Part shown: piece after piece, positions 26,406 to 51,062 of the stretch
Position numbering within the stretch: the stretch's first letter is position 1
How the letters are laid out: the number at the start of each line of letters is the position of its first letter
Sequence record: MZ501109
Length of the DNA stretch: 64,000 nucleotides
Origin: Escherichia phage TrudiRoth
Direction: 5' to 3' (one strand)
The notes under the pieces: model-generated
Databases searched by the model: none
What the model saw: only the letters and a program-made list of their open reading frames with translations
What the model was told of the DNA's origin: nothing
Position numbers and translations under genes: made by a program

Positions 26406-26408
26406 TAT

Positions 26409-26485: not shown

Positions 26486-26491
26486 AACAAT

Positions 26492-26569
26492 TGCGGGTTA
26501 GATCTTTGGTAGAGATCGCTAGTCTCATAAGCTAGAAAGAGGTAGGTTCGATTCCTGCACCCGCTTCCA
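26492..26569 (+). tRNA. tRNA-Met/Ile2 (anticodon CAU), unpaired 1-72
   Basis: D-stem GAUC/GAUC, anticodon stem CUAGU/GCUAG with loop CUCAUAA, T-arm GUAGG-UUCGAUU-CCUGC, U1-U72 mismatch, CCA. Confidence 0.65.
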
Positions 26570-26590
26570 ATTTAATAGAAGGATTTCGAA

Positions 26591-26755
26591 ATGAAATTAT
26601 TTCGTTTAAAAGTAAGTGATTTACGTTCTAGCAAAGATCGTAAGAAGTATCCACTAGCCCATTACGGTAAAGATGAAAACGAAGTGATGGCGGAATTTGG
26701 TATTAATCACCCTTACTTAAAAGTTTATTCTATTAAGGAAGTCTATGCTAATTAA
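26591..26755 (+). CDS. small hypothetical protein
   Basis: 54-aa ORF (below the track cutoff) translated by hand; RBS AAGGA. Confidence 0.3.
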   Translation: MKLFRLKVSDLRSSKDRKKYPLAHYGKDENEVMAEFGINHPYLKVYSIKEVYAN

Positions 26756-27218
26756 TAAAGTTTTAGCTGCCTTAAACCTTCCTGATAACTTCATTATAGA
26801 TGATAAGCTCATAAGAGCTTATATGAGCAAATATAACGAAATTTCAGGTAAAGAAGGTAAGTTAAAAACTTCAGAGTTTAGATTCTGTTATCGAATGGCA
26901 GCCTTAAATCTCTTAAAATATAAAAGGGAGCATAAAATACCTATAACGGAAGGTTTTGTATATGTAATTGGTAATCCAGCATGGCCAGGCATGTATAAAA
27001 TAGGTATGACTATAGATGTGAATGAGAGGTTAACAAGTTATCAAACTTATTCACCTAATAGAGACTACAAGCTATACCATTTCAGATTTTCGTCGGATAA
27101 AAGACGTACAGAGAAAGAATTACATAATCTTCTTAAAGATTATAGAGTATCTGGAGAATGGTTTGAAGTACCTGTACTAGATGCTTTTAAATTATTAGTA
27201 GAAAAATTGGATTGCTAG
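26745..27218 (+). CDS. T5orf172-domain (GIY-YIG superfamily) protein
   Basis: GFVYVIGNPAWPGMYKIGMTIDVNERL matches the GIY..YIG..R pattern. Confidence 0.65.
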   Translation: MLINKVLAALNLPDNFIIDDKLIRAYMSKYNEISGKEGKLKTSEFRFCYRMAALNLLKYKREHKIPITEGFVYVIGNPAWPGMYKIGMTIDVNERLTSYQTYSPNRDYKLYHFRFSSDKRRTEKELHNLLKDYRVSGEWFEVPVLDAFKLLVEKLDC

Positions 27219-27382: not shown

Positions 27383-27625
27383 TTGCAAATGCAATTATCA
27401 TCTAAAGTTCAAGGTTTCTTCGCACATGCAACAGCAGAATTTGCTATTAGCAAGGGTTGGGATTTTGAGCAAGAACTTTCTGAGTTCTATAAAGATATAG
27501 ATATGAATACGCCATACATGGGACTCTCCACTGGTCAAGAGATCACAGAAGGCGATGTGTTCAAGGCAAGTCAAGGTGAGGTAACACCTAGTTTTGCCGC
27601 TTTTTTGGAGTGGCTTCACAATTAA
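27383..27625 (+). CDS. hypothetical protein
   Basis: 80-aa ORF with RBS AAGGAA. Confidence 0.45.
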   Translation: MQMQLSSKVQGFFAHATAEFAISKGWDFEQELSEFYKDIDMNTPYMGLSTGQEITEGDVFKASQGEVTPSFAAFLEWLHN

Positions 27626-27734
27626 AGAAGAAGCTCCAGATGATGATGTATTTATGCAAAGCATGCACTCTGGGAGTTCTGATATGTTATTTGTTAAAGA
27701 TGTACGACATATCCAAGAAGTGGTAAAAACGCAG

Positions 27735-27763
27735 TTGCTTAATGCTTAATTTCTTGTTATAAT
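27735..27763 (+). promoter_or_regulatory. sigma70-type early promoter driving an ORF-free leader
   Basis: -35 TTGCTT, 17 bp, -10 TATAAT; about 320 nt without an ORF before the next tRNA. Confidence 0.6.
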
Positions 27764-28735: not shown

Positions 28736-29251
28736 ATGCTAACACAACAAGAATTAAAATCCGTGTTGTTATATAAACCAGATACTGGAGAGTTTTTCTG
28801 GAAATATAGATCTGATTTAGATAGTCAATGGAATAGTAAATATGCTGGAACTAGGGCAGGATTTATTAATGAACTAGGCTATTGGAAGATAACTCTAGGA
28901 AATACTAGCTGGTTAGCACATCGTCTAGCATTCTTATACATGACTGGGGAAATACCAGATCTAATTGACCACAAGGATCAAGATAAGTCCAATACTAAAT
29001 GGGATAACTTACGAATAGCCACTGTATCACAGAATCAGGCTAATGCTAAATTAAGGGTAGATAATACCTCTGGGTACAAAAATGTAACTTGGCATAAGCA
29101 AAGAAATAAGTGGAAAGTAGAAGTACGTAAAGATGGCAAACTCCATTATGGTGGACTTTTTACAGAACTAGATAAAGCTGTAAATAAAGCTAATAATCTT
29201 AGACGTGAGTTATTCGGGGAATTTGCAGTATATGAAGAGTTTATGGGGTAG
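28736..29251 (+). CDS. HNH homing endonuclease with AP2-like domain
   Basis: Shares AHRLAFLYMTGE, DHKDQDK, NLR and GYKNV motifs with 6460, 39902 and 42058. Confidence 0.7.
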   Translation: MLTQQELKSVLLYKPDTGEFFWKYRSDLDSQWNSKYAGTRAGFINELGYWKITLGNTSWLAHRLAFLYMTGEIPDLIDHKDQDKSNTKWDNLRIATVSQNQANAKLRVDNTSGYKNVTWHKQRNKWKVEVRKDGKLHYGGLFTELDKAVNKANNLRRELFGEFAVYEEFMG

Positions 29252-30935: not shown

Positions 30936-31302
30936 AGAACAGAGGATCAGGTCATTGTACCAGATCCTGCTGAGAAGAGAGTCCACATTCTATAAATGGC
31001 CGGGCGTGACAGCAGGAAGTAGACTGCAACTCCATGCTATCCAGGAGTATAAATGTAGAAGCTAAGACTTTAGATAGCCATTGTCTTAGCGTGAGCAATC
31101 ACGTAGTTGCAACAGACCTGGAAGATCGCAACGTTAAAATCAAAGCTCCTGTGCTTATTAAACTGAATGGGACTATCAATCCACAAGCCGGACTACGAGC
31201 GATTATCGGGTATTCACTTAATAAGCAAGCCTGCCTTCCAGTTTTTATCTTGCTTCTGGGTTAACAAAAAGCTGAGCCAAATTCTAACATCAGGGAGATC
31301 TA

Positions 31303-31671
31303 ATGAAAGCATATCAAAGTCTTAAGTCTGGCGTAATTAACATTGTTCATAACAATCAGATCATTCAACTATATTCTAAAGATGGTGAACTTAAACAGAA
31401 AGTTCTAGTCGAAGATCTAGAAGGTATCACACCTCACTTTGACCCTGAGGCCTTTCGCATTGTAGATGTGGAAGTGGTTCCTCAAGTCGAGGGTGGTCAG
31501 CACCTAAATGTCAATGTGTTAAGCCGTGATCAGCTTTTGGATGCACAGAAACATCCTGAAAAATATCCTCAGTTGACCATCCGTGTCTCTGGCTATGCTG
31601 TTCGATTTAACGCATTGACGCGTGAACAACAGAACGACGTTATTAGTCGTACATTTACTCAGGCGATATAA
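31303..31671 (+). CDS. grcA: autonomous glycyl-radical cofactor GrcA/YfiD-like
   Basis: [12 protein letters not shown]...[37 protein letters not shown] closely matches the C-terminal glycyl-radical domain of GrcA/PFL; RVSGY radical site. Confidence 0.8.
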
Positions 31672-31752
31672 TGGGGTTTGGATACGATTTCTCCCAGCTA
31701 CGCAAGGTAGTCGAGCAAACTCCATTTATCTCCCAAGTTTTAGGAGAAATGT

Positions 31753-32052
31753 GTGGATCGAGCATTAAGACGCCATCACCGGCAACGTGTGAAAAACAAT
31801 CGCAAAAAGTATTGGACAGTCTTCCCACATGAAGAAAGTCCTAAGCGGTTAGGCATTATCACTACCACTCCTTGCATCTGTTCTTGTTGGATGTGTGGGA
31901 ATCCTCGCAAATACTATAAGAATAGTAAAGCAGGCATGAAAATCTCGGAGATTAAAAAGATGGATGCAATGATTATGGGCATCACCTTTACAGGTGGTAT
32001 CTCTGATGAATTCGACGGTTTTGTAACTCAGGATATTGTCGAAATTATCTAA
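31753..32052 (+). CDS. hypothetical protein
   Basis: 99 aa, GTG start; terminator follows. Confidence 0.35.
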   Translation: MDRALRRHHRQRVKNNRKKYWTVFPHEESPKRLGIITTTPCICSCWMCGNPRKYYKNSKAGMKISEIKKMDAMIMGITFTGGISDEFDGFVTQDIVEII

Positions 32053-32062
32053 TTAATAATAA

Positions 32063-32098
32063 ACCCCAGCTATTGAATAGGTAGTCTGGGGTTTTCTT
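32063..32098 (+). terminator. rho-independent terminator
   Basis: Stem ACCCCAG/CUGGGGU followed by UUUUCUU. Confidence 0.65.
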
Positions 32099-32116
32099 GT
32101 ATGTAGGATTTTCGAA

Positions 32117-32302
32117 ATGAAAATTTTTAAAGTGAACTATAGCGGCCTGTGGTTAGGTGGTACAGCTATTGTCGTTGCAGAAACTGCAGAAGAAGCAATC
32201 GAACTGACTAGAAACCATAGAAGTTCTATAGAATTCGAGGATGTGACAGTAGAAGAACTCCCGAGCAGTGGGGTAGTATACAACAACAACGGAGATTACT
32301 GA
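32117..32302 (+). CDS. hypothetical protein
   Basis: 61-aa ORF. Confidence 0.4.
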   Translation: MKIFKVNYSGLWLGGTAIVVAETAEEAIELTRNHRSSIEFEDVTVEELPSSGVVYNNNGDY

Positions 32303-32360
32303 TGTTATATTTTGAAGTTCGCCCACATTAAGTTAATTTAAAAGACTTAATGGAGGTAAT

Positions 32361-32756
32361 ATGAGCCGTACATATCGTAAACAATCTGGTGATCGTCACT
32401 GGCGTGATGCACATCGTTCTACTTATAATTTTCATAGCACTAATATCCGTATTCCGTATACCTACACGGATAGGGATGGTAAGCAGTGGAAGTATTATCA
32501 AGTTCGATCCAATGAAGCATGGGCTAAAACTTGGGATGAAATTGAGAAGGAGATTCAGGAAAATATCATCCGTAACGAGAAGAAAGATGGGCACTGGTGG
32601 GATTCTGTTAGTAGGAATGTTAAGTGGCATTCTAACAAAATGGTTCGTCAGGGAAACCGTCGCGAACTTCATCGTGTGATGAAAGATCCAGAAAATTACG
32701 ACTATAATCGCGATCATGATCTGCGTAAGCGTGGGTTATGGTGGTGCTACGACTAA
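32361..32756 (+). CDS. hypothetical protein
   Basis: 131 aa, Trp/His/Arg-rich, RBS GGAGG. Confidence 0.5.
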   Translation: MSRTYRKQSGDRHWRDAHRSTYNFHSTNIRIPYTYTDRDGKQWKYYQVRSNEAWAKTWDEIEKEIQENIIRNEKKDGHWWDSVSRNVKWHSNKMVRQGNRRELHRVMKDPENYDYNRDHDLRKRGLWWCYD

Positions 32757-32773
32757 TTTCGTAAATAATTCAT

Positions 32774-32802
32774 TTGCTAAAACCCTCTCCTTTTGATATA
32801 AT
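32774..32802 (+). promoter_or_regulatory. sigma70-type early promoter
   Basis: -35 TTGCTA, 17 bp, -10 TATAAT. Confidence 0.65.
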
Positions 32803-32832
32803 ATTTATATAAATTGATGAGAGGGCTTTGAA

Positions 32833-33105
32833 ATGAAAGAAGCAGAAATTAATGAAATGGCTAGAATATTCATCGTTTCCTATATGCAAGGCAGTTGCAA
32901 TAGTTTATTCGAGTCTGCTATAGTATTTCAGGAAATGTTAGCCGAGAAAGGCGTACATATGGAAGATACTGAAATTGAAGATCTTCTAATGGAAACTTGT
33001 AGTAGTGCTGAAGTCTTCCAGTGTGGTAACTGTAATTGGTGGTGTCCAGAGCATGATCGTTCTGAAGAAGGTTCCTACTGTTCCGATTGTGAAGGAGAAG
33101 AATAA
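32833..33105 (+). CDS. Cys-rich small protein
   Basis: 90 aa with CGNCNWWC...CSDC behind promoter 32774-32802. Confidence 0.5.
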   Translation: MKEAEINEMARIFIVSYMQGSCNSLFESAIVFQEMLAEKGVHMEDTEIEDLLMETCSSAEVFQCGNCNWWCPEHDRSEEGSYCSDCEGEE

Positions 33106-33404
33106 TGAATAAGTTTATTATTGCTCTAGTAATTTCAGCAGTTAGTTTCGGTTCTCTGGCATCTACCAAAGTTTCTATGAAAAATGGTAATGTTAAAGTT
33201 CAGCAGAATGGCATTACCACCGAATATGGTAAAGTACGTGATGTAAAAGAACGTAATGGCAAAGTAGAAATATATACTAATAAAAACTTCTCTACTCCGG
33301 CTGTTACTGTTAGTAAACGTGGTGAAATCACTACTCAACGTACTAATAGTTCTGATTCTTTTACTTGCCGTTATGACTGCGGCTTTGAAGGTGAAGATGA
33401 GTAA
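33105..33404 (+). CDS. secreted protein
   Basis: 99 aa with signal peptide MNKFIIALVISAVSFGSLAS. Confidence 0.5.
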   Translation: MNKFIIALVISAVSFGSLASTKVSMKNGNVKVQQNGITTEYGKVRDVKERNGKVEIYTNKNFSTPAVTVSKRGEITTQRTNSSDSFTCRYDCGFEGEDE

Positions 33405-33816
33405 TTTAGACCCTAGAATTAAACATGCAGTCGAAGAAATCCAAGATCAGATAGATGAGGACTTCACTGTTTGGTCAAGATTTGGCAATGGTGAAGGCTG
33501 TCAGCTTTATAGCATGAAAATGGGCATCTCGATTGAACTTAGTATCAATCCAGAGGGCAACGTAGAAGCCCAACCCATGTTCAGTGTTCCAGGCTTCTCT
33601 GGATTTGTTATGGGCATGAAACTATGTCTACCAAATAAACATCTTTACCGTGTTATCTGTCAGCTAGAAACAATTAAACATTTCTTGCCAGAAGATAACA
33701 TTAATGACTACTATCATGAAGTTGTAGCAGCTTACATGATGAAAGAACGCAAACGTCGGAGAGAAGAACGTGAAAGAGCTAAATCTCAACAGTCTAGTAC
33801 AGATTCCAGCAACTGA
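33397..33816 (+). CDS. hypothetical protein
   Basis: ATG 33397 overlaps the previous stop; track ORF opens at 33319. Confidence 0.45.
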   Translation: MSNLDPRIKHAVEEIQDQIDEDFTVWSRFGNGEGCQLYSMKMGISIELSINPEGNVEAQPMFSVPGFSGFVMGMKLCLPNKHLYRVICQLETIKHFLPEDNINDYYHEVVAAYMMKERKRRREERERAKSQQSSTDSSN

Positions 33817-34063
33817 TGCTGTACTAGAATATCTTAGAAAGGATCATGTTAAATTCTGGACTGATTATAGCTACGAGCATAACTCAGATTTAGCTACTGA
33901 TTTTGCAAATAAACGAATAGCTGAGTATACAGATCCTAGAGTTAAGAATGGTGTGATTACTTTACCACTTTGGGATGTGATGGAAAAGTTTGGTAAAGAT
34001 TTGTGCCCAGGTTGTGTACCATTGTTTGTTACTATTCTAATTGATGAAAAGGATCTTAAATGA
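33770..34063 (+). CDS. hypothetical protein
   Basis: 97 aa, GTG start overlapping the upstream ORF. Confidence 0.35.
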   Translation: MKELNLNSLVQIPATDAVLEYLRKDHVKFWTDYSYEHNSDLATDFANKRIAEYTDPRVKNGVITLPLWDVMEKFGKDLCPGCVPLFVTILIDEKDLK

Positions 34064-34344
34064 TTATCTCTCCATTTGCTTTGTGGTTTGTTATTGGTGC
34101 AGTTGTCGCGATTTACAGCCTGATTGATGATCTGTATATCTCTAAAAATAAAGATGTTATTCTTTATGTTATAAACAAATATCGTCCACCAGAATTAGCA
34201 GAATTTGACAATGAAAAGATGTTCAAATTCATTATGTCAGGTATGCTTATCATGGACACCTTGTTCGGGCCAGTAGCTACTTACTTCTTCTTCCGTAAAA
34301 CTCGTAAGATGAAAAAGTTTCGCGCTGAAATGCAGAGCAAGTAA
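34060..34344 (+). CDS. membrane protein
   Basis: 94 aa with two hydrophobic segments. Confidence 0.45.
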   Translation: MIISPFALWFVIGAVVAIYSLIDDLYISKNKDVILYVINKYRPPELAEFDNEKMFKFIMSGMLIMDTLFGPVATYFFFRKTRKMKKFRAEMQSK

Positions 34345-34461
34345 AGAACTCGCGTAGGACCGAGTTGCGTCACCTGCAACTGTTACGGATAAGGGAGTCG
34401 TGCCCCTTTAGTGCGGTAAGTGGTGAGTTGGTCGCTGACCTCAACTTTAACTGGAGATATC

Positions 34462-34809
34462 ATGAGCTTTATTTTATTCAGTGTAGCAGCATGGTTTATT
34501 ATTGGTTTAGGCTATGCTATTGCAGTTATTCGTCATCTGGATGAATATTCTGCTGAATGGTTTATTAAGTACCTACGTTTAGACGATCGAGAACACGAGT
34601 TCGACAGTGCTGAGGAAAGACAGGCTGTCCAGTCAATGACTCCCAAAGAATGCTTGCTTTACATGCGTGTAATTGGTTTCTTTGGACTGTTGGTAGTGGG
34701 GCCGCTAGGTCTTACTATTGCTCCCTACAAAGAAGTTGTTGACGACATTAAACTATGGAGAACCGCTGGATCGCTACGTCGTGCTAGAGAATTAAGTAAA
34801 CAAGAGTGA
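34462..34809 (+). CDS. membrane protein
   Basis: ATG 34462 after GGAGAT; track ORF opens at 34420. Confidence 0.45.
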   Translation: MSFILFSVAAWFIIGLGYAIAVIRHLDEYSAEWFIKYLRLDDREHEFDSAEERQAVQSMTPKECLLYMRVIGFFGLLVVGPLGLTIAPYKEVVDDIKLWRTAGSLRRARELSKQE

Positions 34810-34844
34810 TGATAATCACCTCCTAGCAAGAATAATAATGACAA

Positions 34845-34880
34845 AGCCCAGCCTGCAATTTTGCGACTGGGCTATTTTTG
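34845..34880 (+). terminator. rho-independent terminator
   Basis: Stem AGCCCAG/CUGGGCU followed by AUUUUUG. Confidence 0.6.
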
Positions 34881-34894
34881 TAATAAAATTTCAG

Positions 34895-34923
34895 TTGCTC
34901 AGATGCCACAAGTATTGTATAAT
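34895..34923 (+). promoter_or_regulatory. sigma70-type early promoter
   Basis: -35 TTGCTC, 17 bp, -10 TATAAT. Confidence 0.6.
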
Positions 34924-34954
34924 ATGTTTATAGATTGAGGCAAAAGGATAATTT

Positions 34955-35653
34955 ATGAGAATCATTTCAAAGTTCAATGATGTATACGATTTGCAGAATA
35001 GTTTATTTGATCCAGATCGTGTCTGGGAGCGTAAAACTGAAGAGCTGCGAGTAAAAGTAACTGACGATGTAGAAAAGAATATCGTTCATAATCGTCAGGT
35101 GTTTCGTGAGGGTTCCTTATCCTTCCGTGGTGACTTCGAATACTCAGTAAATCCACTGTTTATTGCAGGCGAAGTTTACTGGTTACATGAACTGTCCTGC
35201 TGGCATCCAGCATTCAGTTTCAAAACGTTCAACATCGATGCTGTGTTCGATAAAATGGAAGAAATGGGATTACATGCCCGTTCTTACTTACTAGATAAGA
35301 ATCGTGGTGATGTTCGTGAAACCATGCGAGATATGTTGGTTGAAGCAAAACCTAAAGCAGAACGTATCTTATCTGAACTGCGCGTACCAATTGCATATGT
35401 GAAAGGTATTAAGAAGAACGATAACGATGATGTTCGTAACTTCGTAATTCAGACAAACATTCGTTTCCATCAGTCAGGTATTCCGTGGCAGGAAATTGAA
35501 AGTAACTTATACCGTTTACACCAAGTTCTCGAACAGTATATCTTCGGTGTACTAGGAACTGGTGAGCCTGATATGATTACCGTATCAGATAAAGACAGGT
35601 TAGCAGCACATGGATTTGATACAAAAACTTCTTTCAGGAATATGGCAAGGTAA
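34955..35653 (+). CDS. hypothetical protein
   Basis: 232 aa behind promoter 34895-34923. Confidence 0.5.
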   Translation: MRIISKFNDVYDLQNSLFDPDRVWERKTEELRVKVTDDVEKNIVHNRQVFREGSLSFRGDFEYSVNPLFIAGEVYWLHELSCWHPAFSFKTFNIDAVFDKMEEMGLHARSYLLDKNRGDVRETMRDMLVEAKPKAERILSELRVPIAYVKGIKKNDNDDVRNFVIQTNIRFHQSGIPWQEIESNLYRLHQVLEQYIFGVLGTGEPDMITVSDKDRLAAHGFDTKTSFRNMAR

Positions 35654-36059
35654 GTGGTATATCCTGGGAGCTGGTCTTGCGATAGGTATCGGATTCGGTG
35701 CTTATCACTTAGTTAATAAGGTTGAGACTCTAGCAGGTGATCTTGCAGTTGCGACTAAAAAGATCTCCACTCTAGAGACTTCTCTTAATAAAGTGAAAAC
35801 TGAGAGTGAACTTCGTGAGACTCGAATGAACCAGTATTTCACAATGAATAATATTTCGCAAGCAGATCTAGACAAAAAGATTAAGCAGTTAGATAAAGCT
35901 CTTAGTCGTCAAGATGTTATCGCTGCAAAGCCTGGATTGGTAACATTAATTGCTAAAAAGCAGAATAAAGAGTTCGAGGAAAGATTAGCGTGTTTAACTG
36001 GAAACTTGGAGTACTGCTCGCAGCCGCAATCACAATCACAGGCTGTGCAGAAGAAATAA
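35610..36059 (+). CDS. i-spanin-like protein (putative)
   Basis: N-terminal TM segment (WYILGAGLAIGIGFGAY) followed by coiled coil. Confidence 0.45.
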   Translation: MDLIQKLLSGIWQGKWYILGAGLAIGIGFGAYHLVNKVETLAGDLAVATKKISTLETSLNKVKTESELRETRMNQYFTMNNISQADLDKKIKQLDKALSRQDVIAAKPGLVTLIAKKQNKEFEERLACLTGNLEYCSQPQSQSQAVQKK

Positions 36060-36343
36060 AACCGGAGCCATCCCATGAGTTAAAGCAAGCTCATATAGAT
36101 TGGCCTAAAGGACTTCAGCCGTGTAGCTTTGATTTCAAATTCGAAAAGAAATTAGCTACAAATGGTGAAGATGGCGTAGTAGTTGTTGTACCTTACAAAG
36201 ATTGGAATGCAAAAGCAAAATGCGAGGAAGCAGTTTACTCTTACATTTCACGACTGACCGGTATGGTTTGCTTCTATCGTCAAGATTTACAAGAAAAACG
36301 TTGCTTAGTTTATTATCCACCCATTACAAATAGGAAAGATTAA
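35990..36343 (+). CDS. o-spanin-like lipoprotein (putative)
   Basis: Signal peptide with lipobox ITGC; start lies in the +1 frame inside the end of the i-spanin-like ORF. Confidence 0.5.
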   Translation: MFNWKLGVLLAAAITITGCAEEIKPEPSHELKQAHIDWPKGLQPCSFDFKFEKKLATNGEDGVVVVVPYKDWNAKAKCEEAVYSYISRLTGMVCFYRQDLQEKRCLVYYPPITNRKD

Positions 36344-37095
36344 TGTCAGTATTAGTCGGTTTACACGGTGAGGCTGGTGCGGGAAAAGATACCGTTGCAG
36401 AATTAATGATTGACTGGTGTAATGACACGTTCCCAACGTGTTTATCCCGTCGTTACAGTTTTGCTAAACCCGTTTACGAACTTGCATCCGTAATCCTCGG
36501 GGTAACTCCAGAGTTTCTGGGAGAGCGCAGGGGGAAAGAGATTGACCAATGGTTTACAGTCACACAATCTCAATTGGAGCGAGCTAGAGACATATGGTTT
36601 AAGTATGGTATCGATAAGTTTGAGGACTTCTCGTACGTTTGGCCTATTTTTGAAGGAAAATACCTTGATCCTCAGCAGTTAATTGGGCAAGCTGATGATG
36701 CGCTGTATAGCGTGTTTATCTCCCCAAGAAAAATGCTACAGCTTGTAGGTACTGAGTTAGGAAGGCAGCTGGTGCATGAACGCATTTGGCTCATAATTCT
36801 GGAGCAATCCATCGATAAAGACGACCCAGACGTCGCAATCGTTACCGATGTGCGTTTTCCCAATGAGGGAGAGCTAATCATGGAAACCAATACTCTAGAT
36901 ATGGATTCCATACTTATTAAGGTTGAATCTGGTATTACTAATAAGTATCGCATCGAGACAGATCATCCGTCTGAAAGCGGTATTCCTGAAAAATACATTT
37001 CTCATAAATTTGAGAATACCTTCAACGGACTTGATGCACTTCGTACCGATGTGTACCACTTCTGTGACTTAGAGCTAGAACCACTAGTTGGATAA
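36343..37095 (+). CDS. dnk: deoxynucleoside monophosphate kinase
   Basis: P-loop GLHGEAGAGKDT; 250 aa as for T5 Dnk. Confidence 0.7.
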   Translation: MSVLVGLHGEAGAGKDTVAELMIDWCNDTFPTCLSRRYSFAKPVYELASVILGVTPEFLGERRGKEIDQWFTVTQSQLERARDIWFKYGIDKFEDFSYVWPIFEGKYLDPQQLIGQADDALYSVFISPRKMLQLVGTELGRQLVHERIWLIILEQSIDKDDPDVAIVTDVRFPNEGELIMETNTLDMDSILIKVESGITNKYRIETDHPSESGIPEKYISHKFENTFNGLDALRTDVYHFCDLELEPLVG

Positions 37096-37107
37096 TTAAG
37101 GATCACT

Positions 37108-37707
37108 ATGACTAACAAGAAAGAAGAAAAGACTAACCTGTTTCACACTGTTCGCCAATCTAATGAGTATACCTTTTTCTTTGACGAAGAGTTAGGCTCA
37201 CCGGATGAGTATCGTGATCTATCAATGATACTGATGCAGGCTGGTGAAGATGATGAAATTAATCTGATGATTAATGGGCCTGGTGGTTACGTTGATACTG
37301 CTGCACAGCTATCTAACCTAATAGCTAACTGTCGTGGAACGGTTATTGGGCACCTGCTCGGTCCTAGTGCTTCTGCTTACTGCACAATCTTCCTATCTTG
37401 CCACGGTTGGGTTGTACATCCACATGCTACGCTTATGGGACATACGTTCTCTGGCGGATTCTGCGAGAAAGGTCAAGAAATCAAGAAAGCCTATGAATCC
37501 TACAACCAGTTTGTAGAAGATATGATGCTAGATATTTACTTTCCGTTCTTCTCTGTCGACGAAATCGAGGACATGGTAAAAGAGAATAAGAATATCTATC
37601 TCAACAGCAAAGAAATCAATAAGCGTATTGAAATTTTGGCGAATTATCGTAAAGAGCAGTGTAGTAAAGCTCAAGCCCCACATCCAGAAGAACATGGAGA
37701 AGTGTAA
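37108..37707 (+). CDS. ClpP-family serine peptidase-like protein
   Basis: INLMINGPGGYVDTAAQL resembles ClpP IYLYINSPGG; candidate catalytic Ser in GPSASAY and His in HPHATLMGH. Confidence 0.6.
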   Translation: MTNKKEEKTNLFHTVRQSNEYTFFFDEELGSPDEYRDLSMILMQAGEDDEINLMINGPGGYVDTAAQLSNLIANCRGTVIGHLLGPSASAYCTIFLSCHGWVVHPHATLMGHTFSGGFCEKGQEIKKAYESYNQFVEDMMLDIYFPFFSVDEIEDMVKENKNIYLNSKEINKRIEILANYRKEQCSKAQAPHPEEHGEV

Positions 37708-37715
37708 GTAGTTTT

Positions 37716-37750
37716 AAGCCAGAGTTTAACGACTCTGGCTTTTCTTTTGC
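37716..37750 (+). terminator. rho-independent terminator after the ClpP-like gene
   Basis: 10-bp stem AAGCCAGAGU/ACUCUGGCUU followed by UUUCUUUUG. Confidence 0.75.
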
Positions 37751-37863
37751 CTAAAATTCTTCTTGACAACGACAAAAAATTGTGCTCCAGAAGTGATCTT
37801 AAAAAACACATTGTAATTTTACTCTAGAATTAGTATAATGGTAGTGGTTAGAGGAGGTTACAA

Positions 37864-38520
37864 GTGGAAAAGTTTATACAACTATTAACGATACTGCTAC
37901 AAGAAGCGAAAGATCCAGCTTCACTACTAAAACGTCTGCTAACTATCTTAGTTGCTGTCATTATTTTCTTGTTTGTAAGTAACACTAGCGAGGTGATGTC
38001 ATTTTTAAAGACTTTCTCCACGTCTTCGGTTTTACAGGATGTTCAAACCCAAAGGATAGATAACTTTCCTAATGTAGCACGAGAAAAGAGTATGGTTCTT
38101 TTCTCCCAGACTGGTGCGGATGCCGTTTTTGTAGTAAAGTATAAACCAGATGCTATAAATGATTATTCAAACATTATTGCATGGGAAAGCAATGCGCAAT
38201 TGGATAGGGCTGACTTGGCCGATAAAGCAGTAAATAAGACGTCTGAACTTTATAGACGTCACCTGGAAGGCTTTAACTACGCTGCGGATTTAAGTGTAAA
38301 AGTAAATAAATATACGGGGTCAAATATACCAGCGTTTAAGAACATTACTTTTAATTACGTCTACACTTGTCCATATTTCAACCTAAATAATATCTATGCT
38401 GGATACATAGGTATTGCATGGAAGGATAAACCCGTAGATACAGCTGATTCGGAACAATTTAATGAGTACTTAGCAAAGCTCTGTTCCCCACAACGGAGAT
38501 CATTAGGTAGATCTATATGA
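37864..38520 (+). CDS. holin-like membrane protein (putative)
   Basis: 218 aa with one strong TM segment, immediately upstream of and overlapping the endolysin gene; GTG start after GGAGG. Confidence 0.5.
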   Translation: MEKFIQLLTILLQEAKDPASLLKRLLTILVAVIIFLFVSNTSEVMSFLKTFSTSSVLQDVQTQRIDNFPNVAREKSMVLFSQTGADAVFVVKYKPDAINDYSNIIAWESNAQLDRADLADKAVNKTSELYRRHLEGFNYAADLSVKVNKYTGSNIPAFKNITFNYVYTCPYFNLNNIYAGYIGIAWKDKPVDTADSEQFNEYLAKLCSPQRRSLGRSI

Positions 38521-38930
38521 GTTTTAAATTTGGTAAAAATAGCGAAAAACAATTAGCAACTGTTAAGCCCGAGCTACAGAAGGTAGCTCGTAGGGCTTTA
38601 GAATTATCTCCATATGATTTCATAATCGTACAGGGTATTCGTACAGTAGCACAAAGTGCCCAAAACATTGCTAATGGTACTTCATTTTTGAAAGACCCTA
38701 GCAAGAGTAAGCATGTAACTGGAGACGCTATCGATTTTGCACCATATATTAATGGAAAGATTGATTGGAAAGATCTGGAAGCATTTTGGGCTGTTAAGAA
38801 GGCTTTTGAACAAGCCGGTAAGGAACTTGGTGTCAAACTTCGTTTTGGTGCCGACTGGAATAGTTCTGGTGATTATCATGATGAGATCGATCGTGGTACT
38901 TACGACGGTGGTCACGTAGAATTAGTCTGA
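38517..38930 (+). CDS. lys: endolysin, L-alanyl-D-glutamate peptidase (T5-type)
   Basis: 137 aa with zinc-site motifs HVTGDAIDF and DGGHVEL; matches the T5 endolysin as I recall it. Confidence 0.85.
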   Translation: MSFKFGKNSEKQLATVKPELQKVARRALELSPYDFIIVQGIRTVAQSAQNIANGTSFLKDPSKSKHVTGDAIDFAPYINGKIDWKDLEAFWAVKKAFEQAGKELGVKLRFGADWNSSGDYHDEIDRGTYDGGHVELV

Positions 38931-38940
38931 TAATAAATCA

Positions 38941-38964
38941 AGGCGGGGTAATTCCCGCCTTTTA
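38941..38964 (+). terminator. rho-independent terminator after the endolysin gene
   Basis: AGGCGGG-GUAAUU-CCCGCCU then UUU. Confidence 0.7.
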
Positions 38965-39005
38965 AAGCAAAGGGGGCTTTAAAAACTTAATGATAGGAGA
39001 AAGCC

Positions 39006-39422
39006 ATGTTTGCAGAACTATTCACCATGATATTACTAGGAATATGGAAAATAAGCCTAGTAATTTTCATCTTAATGATAATTCTCACTGTTGTCGCACT
39101 AGTTACCCAAAATGATACATTAAAGAAAGTCGTTCATGGGCTAGAGTATATAATTATGGGCACATTCGGCGTTTGCAAATGCAACTGTCAGAGGAATACG
39201 AAATATTGTTGGCTTTGGATGGAGTTAGAGAACTGCATCACAGTAGCCCTGGCTGTCTCATTCGGTATGATTCTTATGGCCCTAACTCTAGCATTGATAC
39301 CACTAATGTTAGCTGGGGGAGTCACGGCTTATTTCACCCTTTTCTCCCCTATACTTATGTATTCAATATATCCAATAACTATGTACTTAGTTAGGAAGAG
39401 ATTCCCACATCAAGCACACTAA
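39006..39422 (+). CDS. polytopic membrane protein
   Basis: 138 aa with about four hydrophobic segments. Confidence 0.5.
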   Translation: MFAELFTMILLGIWKISLVIFILMIILTVVALVTQNDTLKKVVHGLEYIIMGTFGVCKCNCQRNTKYCWLWMELENCITVALAVSFGMILMALTLALIPLMLAGGVTAYFTLFSPILMYSIYPITMYLVRKRFPHQAH

Positions 39423-39435
39423 TATAAAAAAGTAG

Positions 39436-39464
39436 TTGACTTTCCGCTGAAATTTTTATATAAT
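39436..39464 (+). promoter_or_regulatory. sigma70-type early promoter
   Basis: -35 TTGACT, 17 bp, -10 TATAAT. Confidence 0.65.
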
Positions 39465-39497
39465 ATTTGTATAAATTGAATCAGAGGAGTTTCACAA

Positions 39498-39905
39498 ATG
39501 TCAGATCGTTACTATACTCAGATGGCTAACCATTACAATATGGCTCCGTATGAATTGAACATCGCATTACGTGACCTCGATTCACCAGAGCGTGCAAAAC
39601 TTGAGAAAAAGGCGGGAATTCGTATGTCTAGCAAGGGCAAGAAACTTACTCGTATTGACTTAAATACCATGTTAATGGAAGAGCTTGGCGTGAATATTGA
39701 AGGTCAGAAGTTGCCTCTCAATGTTCTTGAAACGATGCTGGATAAAGTCAAAAAGAAAACCTATAAGAAAGTACAAGTACCGGAAGGCAGGCTAAAAGCC
39801 CCTTATCAGGCTGCTGTATCTGAGTGCTTAGGTGCTACCTTAGATCTTAGCACTGCAACTGTTAAAGTGATGCGTGCGTTTTTAGAGGCAGTTAATAAAT
39901 TGTGA
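39498..39905 (+). CDS. hypothetical protein
   Basis: 135 aa behind promoter 39436-39464. Confidence 0.5.
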   Translation: MSDRYYTQMANHYNMAPYELNIALRDLDSPERAKLEKKAGIRMSSKGKKLTRIDLNTMLMEELGVNIEGQKLPLNVLETMLDKVKKKTYKKVQVPEGRLKAPYQAAVSECLGATLDLSTATVKVMRAFLEAVNKL

Positions 39906-40429
39906 TTACCCAAGAAAGATTGAAGGAGCTTCTAGAGTACAATCCAGATACAGGGATATTTATATGGAAGAGCCGAAAGATAGATAGAAGTGGTTTTAAC
40001 AAGCAATTCGCAGGAAAAGTTGCTGGCAATCCTCAAAATAACGGTTATATCAATATTACTGTTGATTCCGAAGTTCATGGGGCACATAGATTAGCTTTTC
40101 TTTACATGGAAGGCTATATGCCTGCAAGGGTAGACCACGAAAACATGGTTAGGTCTGATAACAAATGGCTTAACCTACGAGAAGCTACAGTCTCTCAAAA
40201 TGGTGCTAATGCGTTAAAGTATTCTAACAATAGTTCTGGATATAAGAACGTATACTGGACAAAGAAAACGTGTAAATGGCAAGTACAGGTTATGAAAGAT
40301 GGTAAATCCTACTCGGGAGGATACTTCACAAACCTCAAAGATGCTGTAGAAACTGCCAATGAGTTAAGATTTGAATTATTTGGGGAATTTGCCCTATATG
40401 AACCATTTAAAGGAGATAAACATGAGTAA
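39902..40429 (+). CDS. HNH homing endonuclease with AP2-like domain
   Basis: AHRLAFLYMEGYMP, DHENMVRSDNKWLNLREAT and GYKNVYW; paralog of 6460, 28736 and 42058. Confidence 0.7.
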   Translation: MITQERLKELLEYNPDTGIFIWKSRKIDRSGFNKQFAGKVAGNPQNNGYINITVDSEVHGAHRLAFLYMEGYMPARVDHENMVRSDNKWLNLREATVSQNGANALKYSNNSSGYKNVYWTKKTCKWQVQVMKDGKSYSGGYFTNLKDAVETANELRFELFGEFALYEPFKGDKHE

Positions 40430-40814: not shown

Positions 40815-41195
40815 TTGAATTACGCATATCTTATAATACATAACAACGTGGTCTGTGGTACTCGTGCTGTAGAAATGGGAATCACAGAAGAAAAATATAA
40901 GTCACTACCTGAAAAAGAGCAAGAATATTACGTTGAGCAAGCTGCTTGGGAATATGCTGAAGTTTATCCCGAAGAACGTGAAGGTCGTGTTACTATTGTT
41001 GTTGCTCTGGGGCTGGTGGGCTGTGATACCGAAGTTGATACAGATCTAGAAACACTTGAAGAATGGGAAGAGCTGGATATTGCAGAGCAAAATGCTATTA
41101 TCCGTGAATCTTTCTGGGAAGCAGTAGACTGTCACGTTGTCTTTGAGCCAAACGATACAGAAGCTGAAAAACATACTAATTGGATGACTCGATAA
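40815..41195 (+). CDS. hypothetical acidic protein
   Basis: 126 aa, TTG start behind promoter 40755-40783. Confidence 0.4.
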   Translation: MNYAYLIIHNNVVCGTRAVEMGITEEKYKSLPEKEQEYYVEQAAWEYAEVYPEEREGRVTIVVALGLVGCDTEVDTDLETLEEWEELDIAEQNAIIRESFWEAVDCHVVFEPNDTEAEKHTNWMTR

Positions 41196-42058
41196 TGAAA
41201 AAAGAATTTAACCTGCATGAAATGTTAGTAGTACCAGACGATGTTAACCTGTTCTTCGTAGGAGATATTCACGGCTGTAATGATATGCTGGAAGATGCTC
41301 TTAAACTAGCAGGATATAAAGAAAAGCGTGACTATGTTGTCTGTGTTGGCGACTTAATTGACCGTGGCCCGCAGAACTTACAGGTTCTAGCCAAATTCTT
41401 ATATAACCCACGTTTCCGTAGCGTTCGTGGCAACCATGATCAGTTTATGATTGCCGGGGATTATGCCAACTGGATGTATAATGGTGGAATGTGGGCAATG
41501 AATGATCTGGATACCGATACAATTAAAGGTATCGCAGAAGATATGGCAGTTAAAATGCCAGTATTCATGACTGTACTCCATCGTGGCAAGAAATACGGTA
41601 TTGTTCATGGTGGAATACCATTCCAGTATAAAGATGCGGGATTCGATGTACATACACCTAATTGGGACGATATTATTGATCATATCGCTGCAAGTGAAAA
41701 TGATCCTAATGATCATCCTAGTTATTACATTGAGCCATATCTATGGGATCGTGATGTAATTCAGGAAATTGGGTTCATCCTAGCACGTGGAGGAGCTACT
41801 CATGAGTACTTCAATCGTTATGCTAGCTTTAAGAATCAGTTAGTAGTTGAAGTACCTCCAGTTAAAGGTGTGGACTATGTATTCCATGGGCACACAGGTG
41901 TACCATACCCAATCCTGTACCAGAACCGCGTATACCTAGATACTGGCGGTGTGTTCAACGGGAAGTTGACGGTTGCGCAAGTTAATGATGAAGCCGGTAA
42001 GATTATGACATTTACCACAGATAAAAATGATAGCTGTGGTGTACAGAGGATTCTGTAA
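41195..42058 (+). CDS. Ser/Thr protein phosphatase (PPP family)
   Basis: Motifs GDIHG, GDLIDRG and RGNHD; ATG 41195 overlaps the previous stop. Confidence 0.75.
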   Translation: MKKEFNLHEMLVVPDDVNLFFVGDIHGCNDMLEDALKLAGYKEKRDYVVCVGDLIDRGPQNLQVLAKFLYNPRFRSVRGNHDQFMIAGDYANWMYNGGMWAMNDLDTDTIKGIAEDMAVKMPVFMTVLHRGKKYGIVHGGIPFQYKDAGFDVHTPNWDDIIDHIAASENDPNDHPSYYIEPYLWDRDVIQEIGFILARGGATHEYFNRYASFKNQLVVEVPPVKGVDYVFHGHTGVPYPILYQNRVYLDTGGVFNGKLTVAQVNDEAGKIMTFTTDKNDSCGVQRIL

Positions 42059-42570
42059 TGGCCGGTATTTCTCAGGAATACCTGAAGAGTAGACTAACCT
42101 ATAATCCTGAAACATGGGAGTTTCGGTGGAAGCCTAACCCAAATGCTAGTAAAACATGGAATACTAGGTTTGCTGGTAAAGAAGCAGGTACTCTAAATAA
42201 AACTACCGGATATATCAATTTAACAATTGATGGGGTTAAGCATGGTGCACATAGAATGGCTTTCTTATACATGGAGGGCTATTTACCTACTAAAGTGGAT
42301 CACAAAGATACAATAAGAACAAATAATGCTTGGAGTAACCTTAGGGCTGCTGATAATGCTCAGAATACTTGGAATGCTGGTATGAAAAGCTCCAATACTT
42401 CAGGATTTAAAGGTGTTTACTTAGATAAGCGTATAAATAAATATGTAGGTAGAGTTCGCTTTAGAGACAAAAGGTTCTCTACTAAATATTATGAAAATGC
42501 TGAGGATGCAGCTAAAGAGTTGGAAATCCTTAGAGAACAGTTACATAAAGAATTTGCGAGGAATGAATAA
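42058..42570 (+). CDS. HNH homing endonuclease with AP2-like domain
   Basis: AHRMAFLYMEGYLP, DHKDTIRTNNAWSNLR and GFKGVY. Confidence 0.7.
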   Translation: MAGISQEYLKSRLTYNPETWEFRWKPNPNASKTWNTRFAGKEAGTLNKTTGYINLTIDGVKHGAHRMAFLYMEGYLPTKVDHKDTIRTNNAWSNLRAADNAQNTWNAGMKSSNTSGFKGVYLDKRINKYVGRVRFRDKRFSTKYYENAEDAAKELEILREQLHKEFARNE

Positions 42571-43168
42571 TGCGTGTTAAATTCTGGTCGGATTTGCACT
42601 TAGACCACCCTGGAACTCTTCGCTTCCGTCCGTGGTTTAAGAATATGAAAGAACATGATGAATATATCCTAGATACTTTGTCCAAGCACATTGGCAAGCG
42701 TACTAAGCTCGTCTTGCTAGGGGATATTGCCGTGGGGCGTGAAGGGTTGGCTAAATTAAAGTCGGTTATCCACAATGTGCCTAACCAGTTAATCATGGGC
42801 AACCACGATGCTGAACGTCAGGGTCTGCATATTAAAGATCTTGTAGACGTTTATGATGATATTCAGGCTCTAGGTAAGCAAACAGGTGGTGGCAAGAAGT
42901 TTTGGCTGTCACACTGTCACACTGTCCATTGCACGAAGCAGAACTTCGTGGTAAGCTAAACATTCACGGACATGTGCACACCAATTCTGTGCGCGACCCA
43001 CGTTATATCAACATCTCTTTTGAGATGAGTAAGACTCCTATTCCTCTAGAAGATATTGTATCTGGCAAGTTCACAAGCTATGATAGAGTAGTTAACTGCA
43101 CTACTGGTGAAGTACTCCAAATCGATGAAGATGTGGCAGCAGTATTGAGGGGAGATATCAATGTTTGA
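42570..43168 (+). pseudogene. calcineurin-like metallophosphoesterase interrupted by an 8-bp tandem duplication
   Basis: Frame 1 (42570..42959) carries DLHLD, GDIAVG and GNHD; frame 2 (42902..43168) carries HGHVH; removing one GTCACACT copy at 42908-42923 fuses them into ...FWLSHCPLHEAELRGKLNIHGHVHT... Confidence 0.6.
42908..42923 (+). repeat. 8-bp tandem duplication GTCACACT x2 inside the metallophosphoesterase reading frame
   Basis: GTCACACTGTCACACTGTCC read directly; accounts for the +2 frame change. Confidence 0.85.
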
Positions 43169-43270
43169 TTTTGATGGTATGGCTCGTGAGATATTTATAG
43201 CAATAGGGGTAGTAGTTCTTATCTCTTTCTTTACGGGCCTAGGCTTAGGCCTTTTATTTTAAAACTTCAT

Positions 43271-50418: not shown

Positions 50419-50462
50419 ATTTCTAGGAGACATTTTTTGAAAACACATTTCTGGAAATTACT

Positions 50463-51062
50463 GTCGGATTTGCACATTACATTTCTAGAAATTTATGGTC
50501 GGATTTGCACATTGATAGGAGTCTCCAAAGTTTTTAGGAACACTGAAAATAGCAGCATTATTTCGGGCCGAAGGCCCATATTTGCCTGAGTTTTTAGAGC
50601 CACAGGAATTTTCACTTGTCAAGCGATTTTGCCCCATTTTGCTAATAAAATTTCGCTTTATCTCCCCTAATCTCAATTCTAGCCAAAACATCCCGCATTA
50701 TCCTCAAAAATGCAGCAAACCGGTGCTAAAGCACCATCACCGCTGCTCCTTCCGTAGTTCCTCCCAAAATCTCATCGGATTCGCACTTCTCCCCAAACTC
50801 ACACAATCACACACCCTCTCATCGAAGTCACAAAAATCTTGTCGGATTTGCACACCTTAACACTTGTCGGATTTGCACATACTCTAGTAAACCCAGCTGG
50901 ATTGCATCGCAGTTGCGGATTGCTGGAGTTTTTAGGAAAATTCATTGTCGGATTTGCACACTATAAAAATTTTTCGGGTAGGATTTGCACATTACCAAAA
51001 ATTGTCGGATTCGCACATACACGCCAGCACGTAACCCATGGAGCAAATGTCGGATTTGCACA
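50463..51062. repeat. about nine dispersed direct copies of a GTCGGATTTGCACA-like 14-mer
   Basis: Exact copies at 50463, 50498, 50841, 50866, 50947 and 51049; variants at 50774 (ATCGGATTCGCAC), 50978 (GTAGGATTTGCACA) and 51004 (GTCGGATTCGCACA). Confidence 0.85.

What the first reader, a model, noticed from the sequence alone, without database searches (positions are those of the whole stretch)
42570..43168. Metallophosphoesterase gene split by an 8-bp tandem duplication
Phosphoesterase motifs are divided between two frames, and GTCACACT occurs twice in tandem at 42908-42923 exactly at the switch point. Deleting one copy restores a single frame reading ...KKFWLSHCPLHEAELRGKLNIHGHVHT.... This is either recent pseudogenisation, a slippage-prone contingency site, or an assembly error. 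The gene sits next to an HNH homing endonuclease and a PPP phosphatase.
Basis: seen in the sequence. Interest (0 to 1): 0.5.

Follow-up and report, generated by a model that had tools for sequence, protein, structure and literature searches.

The report
Phage phosphoesterase gene broken by duplication
A small accessory enzyme gene of a T5-like phage has been knocked out of frame by an extra copy of eight bases, an ordinary and probably recent copying slip in a gene that almost all related phages keep intact.

Summary
CTGTCACA occurs 2.6 times in tandem at 42906-42926. This splits a 196-codon metallophosphoesterase gene into a 129-codon ORF (42570-42959) and a C-terminal remainder in another frame (42914-43168). 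The window comes from an Epseptimavirus, a T5-like phage. Every relative examined has one copy of the 8-bp unit. The duplication junction is absent from 50,697 phage records and from three other public collections. In a 60-record sample of 270 orthologue-bearing records, 59 have the gene in one piece, and it evolves under purifying selection. The single-copy sequence in the closest alleles already holds CTGTC twice, 8 bp apart, which is the microhomology that replication slippage needs. The break separates the metal-binding motifs DxH, GD, GNH and His115 from GHxH, so the product should be inactive. The repeat is not conserved at synonymous sites, its copy number does not vary among relatives, and there is no slippery heptamer. 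That argues against a contingency locus or programmed frameshifting. The assembly has almost no other indels, so an artefact is unlikely, but it cannot be excluded without reads. The best reading is an ordinary, recent, precisely revertible loss-of-function allele. Interest is low.

The parts
42570..42959 (+). Truncated 5' ORF of the phosphoesterase gene. It has 116 native codons carrying motifs DxH (D8, H10), GD (D52), GNH (N78, H79) and His115, then 13 out-of-frame codons (HTVHCTKQNFVVS) and a TAA stop.
   Evidence: ORF list. tblastn of the phage 9-29 orthologue places residues 1-116 at 42570-42917 in frame 3. Invariant residues come from the 51-sequence alignment.
42906..42926 (+). Perfect tandem repeat CTGTCACA x 2.6. 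One 8-bp unit is extra compared with all relatives. In the closest alleles (S126, YZU-L1) the single-copy form is CTGTCACACTGTC, that is CTGTC twice, 8 bp apart.
   Evidence: TRF; alignments; chance expectation 0.06 per window; state of the site in 22 related loci.
42914..43168 (+). 3' remainder of the phosphoesterase gene in the shifted frame. It encodes LSHCPLH...GHVH (motif V: H130, H132, H134) and the C-terminal domain. The mechanical ORF starts at a TTG at 42902. There is no ATG and only a weak GGTGG about 9 nt upstream.
   Evidence: tblastn places residues 113-196 at 42914-43165 in frame 2. ORF list. Sequence read directly.
42058..42570 (+). Free-standing HNH homing-endonuclease gene (HNH_3, plus an AP2-like match below Pfam's cutoff). 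Its stop overlaps the phosphoesterase start by 1 nt. Most relatives lack it, and two small ORFs occupy the position instead.
   Evidence: Pfam and PHROG hits. It is present in EH1, RN29 and AKM_ECS and absent from S126, YZU-L1, 9-29 and Shin27. It is 99.4% identical in protein to the EH1 copy.
41195..42058 (+). PPP-type (lambda NinI-like) Ser/Thr phosphatase gene, intact, upstream on the same strand with no intervening terminator-like site.
   Evidence: Pfam Metallophos 65 bits. The 287-aa 9-29 orthologue aligns end to end at 92%.
43161..43262 (+). 33-codon hydrophobic ORF (phrog_18933; RefSeq annotates it as 'Rz-like spanin' in several relatives). Its ATG overlaps the end of the phosphoesterase frame, and it has its own GAGGGGAG Shine-Dalgarno sequence. 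A terminator-like hairpin follows at 43235-43252.
   Evidence: PHROG hit, E 6.7e-24; annotations of relatives; terminator scan.

Best explanation
The window comes from an Epseptimavirus (T5-like, Demerecviridae) phage. In its early region it carries the widespread small phage metallophosphoesterase of family phrog_547. In this genome the gene is a recent loss-of-function allele. During DNA replication the nascent strand slipped between two CTGTC pentamers lying 8 bp apart (codons Leu-Ser and Cys-Pro of the conserved LSHCP motif) and copied ACACTGTC twice. The resulting +8 frameshift ends translation 13 codons later. It separates the N-terminal metal ligands (DxH, GD, GNH, His115) from the GHxH motif, so no active enzyme is made. 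The gene is an accessory gene. It is conserved and under purifying selection across the family but dispensable for propagation, so the mutation could be fixed, most simply by a single-plaque bottleneck. Because the lesion is a perfect tandem duplication, it can revert precisely by the same slippage. Shown here: the insertion, its uniqueness, the microhomology, the motif split, the conservation of the family, and the near absence of other indels in the assembly. Inferred: slippage as the mechanism, loss of activity, dispensability, and recency.
For: The 8-bp insertion is seen against S126, YZU-L1, EH1 and Shin27. No record holds the junction sequence in 50,697 phage genomes, IMG/VR, GTDB genomes or JGI metagenomes. 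270 phage records carry the orthologue, and 269 of them cover >=80% of the protein. In an evenly spaced sample of 60, 59 are in a single piece. Of the 17 T5-like loci examined directly (L001-L017), 15 have an intact 194-207 aa ORF. Purifying selection is clear: 37 synonymous against 7 non-synonymous codon differences with 9-29, and 80 against 13 with L007. The window allele carries one substitution (V146I) seen in none of the six compared relatives and no second lesion. The invariant residues D8, H10, D52, N78, H79, H115, H130, H132 and H134 fall on both sides of the break. The fold is confidently a metallophosphoesterase: pLDDT 94, with PDB 1XM7 as top Foldseek match at E 5.5e-11. The CTGTC...CTGTC microhomology is present in the nearest alleles. 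The assembly is almost free of indels. 25.8 kb at 99.88% identity to phage Shin27 has a single indel, itself a 9-bp tandem-repeat copy difference, and a further 9 kb has no gaps. Of the 9-29 genes that hit the window, only this one and one small gene are split between frames. A published precedent shows that single substitutions in conserved motifs abolish a phage metallophosphoesterase, and that such a gene can be dispensable in one host (PMC12287305).
Against: There are no reads and only one genome, so an assembly or consensus artefact cannot be excluded. The window also has a +1 T homopolymer frameshift in another small gene (27601-27606), which could indicate some indel noise. Loss of activity and non-essentiality are inferred, not measured. 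Weak initiation at the TTG at 42902 cannot be ruled out. The substrate and role of the enzyme are unknown.
Confidence: 0.78

Rival explanations
1. Assembly, polishing or consensus artefact. The phage really has one copy and an intact gene.
For: The allele is unique to this sequence. Its exact protein product is not on record in the collection of called genes. One homopolymer (T6 against T5) frameshift lies elsewhere in the window. Other deposited genomes show homopolymer frameshifts in this same gene that may be errors.
Against: A perfect 8-bp tandem duplication is not a typical error of short-read or long-read platforms, which mostly miscount homopolymers (general knowledge). Against a 99.88%-identical relative, 25.8 kb holds no 1-bp indels at all, and another 9 kb has no gaps. 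The site lies mid-genome, not at a contig or terminal-repeat junction.
Confidence: 0.13
2. A selected, reversible off-switch. Loss of the phosphoesterase is adaptive in some hosts, for example by escaping a defence system that senses its activity. The tandem duplication then gives a high-frequency, precisely revertible toggle, as in a contingency locus.
For: Tandem duplications revert precisely (established genetics). The same gene is independently frameshifted in EH1/EH7/IMG-VR L017 (+G), rokbiter (-C) and MET_P1_137_112 (+T). Phage Bas1 escapes the DRT7 defence through frameshifts in a putative phosphoesterase gene (bioRxiv 10.64898/2026.02.16.706125). A mycobacteriophage metallophosphoesterase is needed only in some hosts (PMC12287305).
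Against: There are only 2.6 copies. No relative has any copy number other than one. In most lineages synonymous changes (CAT, or other codons) abolish the microhomology, so the repeat is not maintained by selection. The reciprocal 8-bp deletion allele was not found in IMG/VR, but that scan is uninformative because the single-copy control pattern also found nothing there. Bas1 bas01_0050 is not detectably related to this family. The other frameshifts are at different sites and sit in homopolymers.
Confidence: 0.06
3. The gene is still functional, either through programmed -1 ribosomal frameshifting in the overlap (42878-42957) or through two fragments that reassemble.
For: The shifted frame is open from 42878, so a -1 slip anywhere before 42957 would give a near-full-length protein. 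A GGTGG lies about 9 nt upstream of the TTG at 42902.
Against: There is no XXXYYYZ heptamer in any frame between 42870 and 42957. Relatives encode one continuous ORF, so no frameshift signal has been conserved. The second fragment has no ATG. The split falls inside the beta-sandwich core, right after strand 109-113. Pfam does not recognise the 88-aa fragment.
Confidence: 0.03

Closest known systems
Intact orthologues in Epseptimavirus phages, e.g. Salmonella phage S126 orf125 'phosphoesterase' (AXC41443.1) and Salmonella phage rutana; PHROG family phrog_547
   Same: They have the same locus and the same neighbours on both sides apart from the HNH insertion. Protein identity after removing one repeat copy is 96-98%, and all five metallophosphoesterase motifs are present.
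   Different: They have one copy of CTGTCACA and a single 196-codon ORF. The window has two full copies and a premature stop.
Aquifex aeolicus aq_1665 (PDB 1XM7), a small metallophosphoesterase of unknown function; more distantly YfcE, MJ0936, Mre11, LpxH and P. putida MPE
   Same: aq_1665 is the best structural and sequence match to the repaired protein or its orthologue: Foldseek E 5.5e-11, TM 0.67-0.70, 26% identity, and phmmer E 0.002. It has the same di-metal motif set.
   Different: aq_1665 has no assigned substrate either, so the match gives the fold but not the function. The match to the NCBIfam PdeM model (24 bits against a cutoff of 150) fails membership.
Mycobacteriophage A10ZJ24 Gp48 metallophosphoesterase (PMC12287305)
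   Same: It is a phage-encoded five-motif metallophosphoesterase expressed early. Single substitutions in conserved motifs abolish its function. It is dispensable in one host and required in another. This serves as a model for why such a gene is conserved yet can be lost.
   Different: Homology to the window protein was not tested here because the sequence was not held. The DNA-damaging and counter-defence activities were shown only for Gp48. The host and phage family differ.
Frameshift mutations by slipped-strand mispairing at short direct repeats (Streisinger model, classical phage T4 genetics; established knowledge)
   Same: A short tandem duplication is flanked by pre-existing microhomology, shifts the frame and can revert precisely. 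The only indel against the 99.9%-identical phage Shin27 is likewise a tandem-repeat copy change of 9 bp.
   Different: Nothing differs. This is a textbook instance.
Simple-sequence contingency loci (phase-variable genes of Haemophilus, Neisseria and some phages)
   Same: A tandem repeat inside a coding region has a copy number that sets the reading frame.
   Different: Here there are only 2.6 units. Copy number does not vary among about 270 relatives, and the repeat is not conserved at synonymous sites.

Membership tests
Calcineurin-like metallophosphoesterase superfamily (Pfam Metallophos, Metallophos_2) | Five motifs in order: DxH, GD, GNH(D/E), H, GHxH | tested here: met
   D8, H10, G51, D52, G77, N78, H79, H115, H130, G131, H132 and H134 are invariant in 51 homologues and present in the repaired window sequence. 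In the window as it stands they are divided between two frames.
Calcineurin-like metallophosphoesterase superfamily (Pfam Metallophos, Metallophos_2) | Score above Pfam's gathering threshold | tested here: inconclusive
   The repaired protein scores 22.0 bits on PF00149 (cutoff 21.5) and 24.3 bits on PF12850 (cutoff 27). The 129-aa fragment is below both cutoffs, and the 88-aa fragment has no hit.
Calcineurin-like metallophosphoesterase superfamily (Pfam Metallophos, Metallophos_2) | Metallophosphoesterase fold | tested here: met
   The AlphaFold2 model of orthologue P0001 (97% identical) has pLDDT 94.1. All top Foldseek PDB matches are metallophosphoesterases: 1XM7, YfcE, Mre11, LpxH and MJ0936.
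Calcineurin-like metallophosphoesterase superfamily (Pfam Metallophos, Metallophos_2) | Metal-dependent phosphoester hydrolysis | not testable with these tools
   This needs enzyme assays of the repaired and duplicated alleles.
PHROG phrog_547 'phosphoesterase' | Significant full-length profile match | tested here: met
   E 5.1e-55, residues 1-189 against profile positions 29-227 of 245.
PdeM, ligase-associated DNA-damage-response endonuclease (TIGR04123) | Score above the curated cutoff | tested here: not met
   24.1 bits against a cutoff of 150.
Contingency (phase-variable) simple-sequence locus | Copy number varies among related genomes | tested here: not met
   Every relative aligned at this site has one copy. 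59 of 60 sampled orthologues are in a single piece. The junction is absent from four collections.
Contingency (phase-variable) simple-sequence locus | Repeat tract maintained by selection despite synonymous freedom | tested here: not met
   Most lineages encode LSHCP or LSHAP with codons that remove the CTGTC...CTGTC repeat.
Contingency (phase-variable) simple-sequence locus | Length heterogeneity within a population | not testable with these tools
   This needs reads or amplicon deep sequencing.
Programmed -1 ribosomal frameshift site | Slippery heptamer X XXY YYZ in the overlap | tested here: not met
   None in any frame between 42870 and 42957.
Programmed -1 ribosomal frameshift site | Two-frame arrangement conserved in relatives | tested here: not met
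   Relatives have a single ORF. The few split ones are broken at other sites.
Free-standing HNH homing endonuclease (the neighbouring gene at 42058-42570) | HNH catalytic domain and sporadic presence or absence at a fixed locus among close relatives | tested here: met
   HNH_3 at 41.7 bits (cutoff 24.8) and phrog_99 at E 5.8e-57. It is present in EH1, RN29 and AKM_ECS and absent from S126, YZU-L1, 9-29 and Shin27. Cleavage activity and target were not testable.

The most novel reading that the evidence does not exclude
The duplication is not a neutral accident but a selected, precisely revertible off-state of an early-expressed phage metallophosphoesterase. On this reading, loss of the enzyme lets the phage escape a host defence or toxicity that depends on its activity. 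The recurrent independent frameshifts of this gene in other T5-like phages would reflect the same pressure.
Probability: 0.06. Interest if true: 0.45.

Novelty: new member of a known kind. Interest (0 to 1): 0.12.

Why it matters
It matters little beyond annotation. The two ORFs should be annotated as one disrupted phosphoesterase gene, not as two hypothetical proteins. The allele is natural evidence that this conserved early gene, whose substrate is unknown, is dispensable for propagation of a T5-like phage. It also provides a ready-made knockout and revertant pair for anyone who wants to find the enzyme's role, for example by plating on panels of wild hosts or strains carrying defence systems.

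Tried and rejected
1. HNH link. I considered whether the neighbouring HNH homing endonuclease caused or selects for the disruption, because the window and EH1 share a 99.4%-identical HNH protein and both have a broken phosphoesterase gene. I rejected this. IMG/VR locus L017 has the EH1-type +G frameshift without the HNH at this site. RN29 and AKM_ECS have the HNH with an intact gene.

2. Programmed frameshifting. There is no slippery heptamer.

3. Source of the sequence. I looked up the exact 129-aa product and the exact HNH protein among called genes to find independent assemblies. Neither is on record.

4. Junction pattern scans. The junction scans of IMG/VR, GTDB genomes and JGI metagenomes all found nothing. 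The single-copy and 8-bp-deletion patterns also found nothing in IMG/VR. That result is uninformative, because the IMG/VR relatives carry CAT or other codons at the site.

5. Bas1 precedent. I tested whether bas01_0050, the putative phosphoesterase hit by DRT7 escape mutations, belongs to this family. hhalign matches only the GNHD motif (probability 3%), and there is no Pfam hit.

6. Gene-essentiality literature. A search for T5-like phage essentiality data found nothing on this gene.

7. Apparent frame breaks at 50.0-51.1 kb against phage 9-29. These lie in the non-coding repeat region of the terminal repeat, and the 9-29 CDS annotations there are probably spurious.

Full report
**What is in the sequence**

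Positions 42906-42926 read CTGTCACACTGTCACACTGTC, a perfect period-8 repeat of 2.6 copies. One ORF runs from the ATG at 42570 to a TAA at 42957-42959 (129 aa). A second frame is open from 42878 and runs to the TGA at 43166-43168. The mechanical ORF in it starts at a TTG at 42902 (88 aa). Deleting one unit gives a single 196-codon ORF.

This is the longest perfect short-period tandem repeat in the window. First-order Markov simulations of the window expect 0.06 repeats of period 7-12 and length >=21.

**Whose genome this is**

The window is from a T5-like phage of the genus Epseptimavirus (Demerecviridae). It is not itself in the phage collection searched.

- Window 1-25799 is 99.88% identical to Escherichia coli phage Shin27 (LC788709.1).
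- Window 30938-39899 is 98.8% identical to Shin27.
- The rest is a mosaic, 90-97% identical to Shin27, 9-29, S126 and others.

**The repeat is an insertion unique to this genome**

In alignments with S126, YZU-L1, EH1 and Shin27, the only length difference at this site is 8 bp extra in the window. A 38-nt query was designed so that only a duplication-bearing sequence could seed a match. It found nothing in 50,697 phage records. The 24-nt junction pattern is absent from IMG/VR, from one genome per GTDB species and from JGI metagenomes.

**The gene is normally intact and constrained**

- tblastn with the repaired protein finds the family in 1118 phage records, from T5-like, jumbo, Vi01-like, N4-like, Acinetobacter and Arthrobacter phages.
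- 270 records hold the close orthologue, and 269 of them cover >=80% of the protein. In an evenly spaced sample of 60, 59 are in a single piece.
- Of the 17 T5-like loci examined directly (L001-L017), 15 have one ORF of 194-207 codons.
- Codon differences are mostly synonymous: 37 against 7 with 9-29, and 80 against 13 with L007. Apart from the duplication, the window allele has one substitution (V146I) seen in none of the six compared relatives and no second lesion.

The event is therefore recent on the scale of sequence divergence.

**What the gene encodes**

- The repaired protein matches phrog_547 'phosphoesterase' (E 5e-55).
- It matches Pfam Metallophos marginally (22.0 bits against a cutoff of 21.5).
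- It fails the curated PdeM model (24 against 150 bits).
- In a 51-sequence alignment the invariant residues are D8, H10, G51, D52, G77, N78, H79, H115, H130, G131, H132 and H134. This is the classical five-motif di-metal site.
- An AlphaFold2 model of the 97%-identical orthologue is confident (pLDDT 94.1).
- Its best PDB match is Aquifex aq_1665 (1XM7; E 5.5e-11, TM 0.67-0.70), followed by YfcE, Mre11, LpxH, MJ0936 and P. putida MPE.

The fold and catalytic type are clear. The substrate is unknown, as it is for aq_1665.

**Consequence of the duplication**

The frame shifts after Cys116. The 5' ORF keeps motifs I-IV and adds 13 foreign residues. Motif V (GHVH) and the C-terminal part are left in the other frame, with no ATG and only a weak GGTGG about 9 nt before a TTG. 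Pfam does not recognise the 88-aa fragment. There is no XXXYYYZ heptamer between 42870 and 42957. In a mycobacteriophage metallophosphoesterase, single substitutions in conserved motifs abolish function (PMC12287305). I therefore infer that the allele is null. This was not measured.

**How it arose**

In the nearest alleles (S126, YZU-L1) the single-copy sequence is CTGTCACACTGTCC. The pentamer CTGTC is already present twice, 8 bp apart, from the codons CTG-TCA and (C)TG-TCC. Slipped-strand mispairing between such microhomologies gives exactly this duplication. That is established mutational genetics, applied here by inference.

An independent result supports it. The only indel in 25.8 kb between the window and its 99.88% relative Shin27 is also a tandem-repeat copy change: TCCACTAAA once in the window near 12210 and twice in Shin27.

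**Not a contingency locus**

- No relative has a copy number other than one.
- Most lineages write the same amino acids with codons that destroy the repeat: CAT for His, or CTA-TCT...TGC-CC, or LSHAP. Selection is not maintaining a slippery tract.
- The same gene is independently frameshifted in a few other deposited genomes, but at other positions and in homopolymer runs. EH1, EH7 and IMG/VR L017 have +G in a G4 run. rokbiter has -C in a C5 run. MET_P1_137_112 has +T in a T run.
- These may be real or may be sequencing errors. At most they say the gene is expendable.

**Artefact or real**

I cannot see reads. Three points argue against an artefact:

- 25.8 kb at 99.88% identity to Shin27 has no 1-bp indels, and 9 kb at 98.8% has no gaps.
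- Of the 77 annotated genes of phage 9-29 tested against the window (about 60 gave a hit), only the phosphoesterase shows a clean high-identity two-frame split.
- An exact 8-bp duplication is not a characteristic platform error.

One point argues the other way. The window has one more frameshift, a T6 run (about 27601-27606) where S132 has T5 and an intact 119-codon gene. I put the artefact at about 13%.

**The HNH neighbour**

ORF 42058-42570 is an HNH_3 endonuclease (with an AP2-like match below Pfam's cutoff) that most relatives lack. It is 99.4% identical in protein to the EH1 copy. Similarity to EH1 ends about 28 nt into the phosphoesterase gene, where the window switches to an S126-like allele. 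This is a recombination junction of the kind seen beside homing endonuclease genes.

I tested whether the HNH is linked to the disruption, and it is not. L017 has the EH1-type frameshift without the HNH at this site. RN29 and AKM_ECS have the HNH with an intact gene.

**Verdict**

This is an ordinary, unique and probably very recent loss-of-function allele of a known, widely conserved phage accessory gene, made by a textbook mechanism. The most novel reading left open is a selected, revertible off-state linked to host defence. It rests only on analogies, and one of them failed a homology test. I give it about 6%.

Noticed in passing
window 27383-27749 (T run at about 27601-27606): There is a second frameshifted gene in the window. 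A T6 run, where Salmonella phage S132 has T5, splits a small hypothetical gene (intact 119 codons in S132, 117 in 9-29) into ORFs 27383-27625 and 27594-27749. It is a homopolymer change, so it could be a real mutation or a sequencing error.
   Followed up: partly
window 12186-12235 (inside ORF 11731-12246, + strand): The only indel in 25.8 kb between the window and the 99.88%-identical phage Shin27 is an in-frame 9-bp tandem-repeat copy difference. TCCACTAAA occurs once here and twice in Shin27. Short tandem slippage therefore looks like the usual way indels arise in these genomes.
   Followed up: partly
window 1-25799 and 30938-39899 compared with the rest: The genome is a sharp mosaic. It is 99.88% and 98.8% identical to E. 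coli phage Shin27 (LC788709.1) over these blocks, but only 80-97% identical, with insertions and replacements, elsewhere, including the tRNA region and the phosphatase-HNH-phosphoesterase block.
   Followed up: partly
window 42058-42600: The HNH cassette is 99.4% identical in protein to that of Salmonella phage EH1. It replaces two small ORFs found in S126, YZU-L1, 9-29 and Shin27. The first codons of the phosphoesterase are MRV in HNH-bearing genomes and MKV in the others. Similarity to EH1 ends about 28 nt into the phosphoesterase gene, which marks a recombination junction.
   Followed up: yes
window 6463-6819, 28739-29236, 39905-40402, 42058-42567: Four paralogous HNH_3-type endonuclease genes, 35-46% identical to one another, are scattered through the early region.
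   Followed up: no
window 50462-51062; also 42586-42600: Eight copies of TGTCGGATTTGCACA (0-2 mismatches) lie in the non-coding repeat region of the terminal repeat. This corresponds to the T5 injection-stop (iss) Repeat Region 3 described in bioRxiv 10.1101/866236. The motif ends in a DnaA-box-like TTTGCACA. A 13/15 match (14 consecutive bases identical to the copy at 50497) lies inside the phosphoesterase 5' end, encoding W-S-D-L-H. It is probably a coincidence of codon choice and was not examined further.
   Followed up: partly
L019 (phage 9-29, MN218190.1) 25894-26952: Two 'hypothetical protein' CDS annotated in phage 9-29 lie within the non-coding iss repeat region. They are broken by stops in the window, so they are probably spurious annotations rather than genes lost here.
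   Followed up: partly
L002 (EH1) 3172; L017 3160; L020 (rokbiter) about 1836; L021 (MET_P1_137_112) about 1640: Other deposited T5-like genomes carry independent 1-bp homopolymer frameshifts in the orthologous or homologous phosphoesterase gene. EH1, EH7 and L017 have G4 to G5. rokbiter has C5 to C4. MET_P1_137_112 has an extra T. In each case the gene is annotated as two ORFs or as a truncated one.
   Followed up: partly
window 43161-43262: A conserved 33-codon hydrophobic ORF (phrog_18933) overlaps the phosphoesterase stop. RefSeq calls it an 'Rz-like spanin' in several relatives, although it lies about 4 kb from the holin-endolysin genes. A terminator-like hairpin at 43235-43252 sits inside its 3' end.
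   Followed up: no
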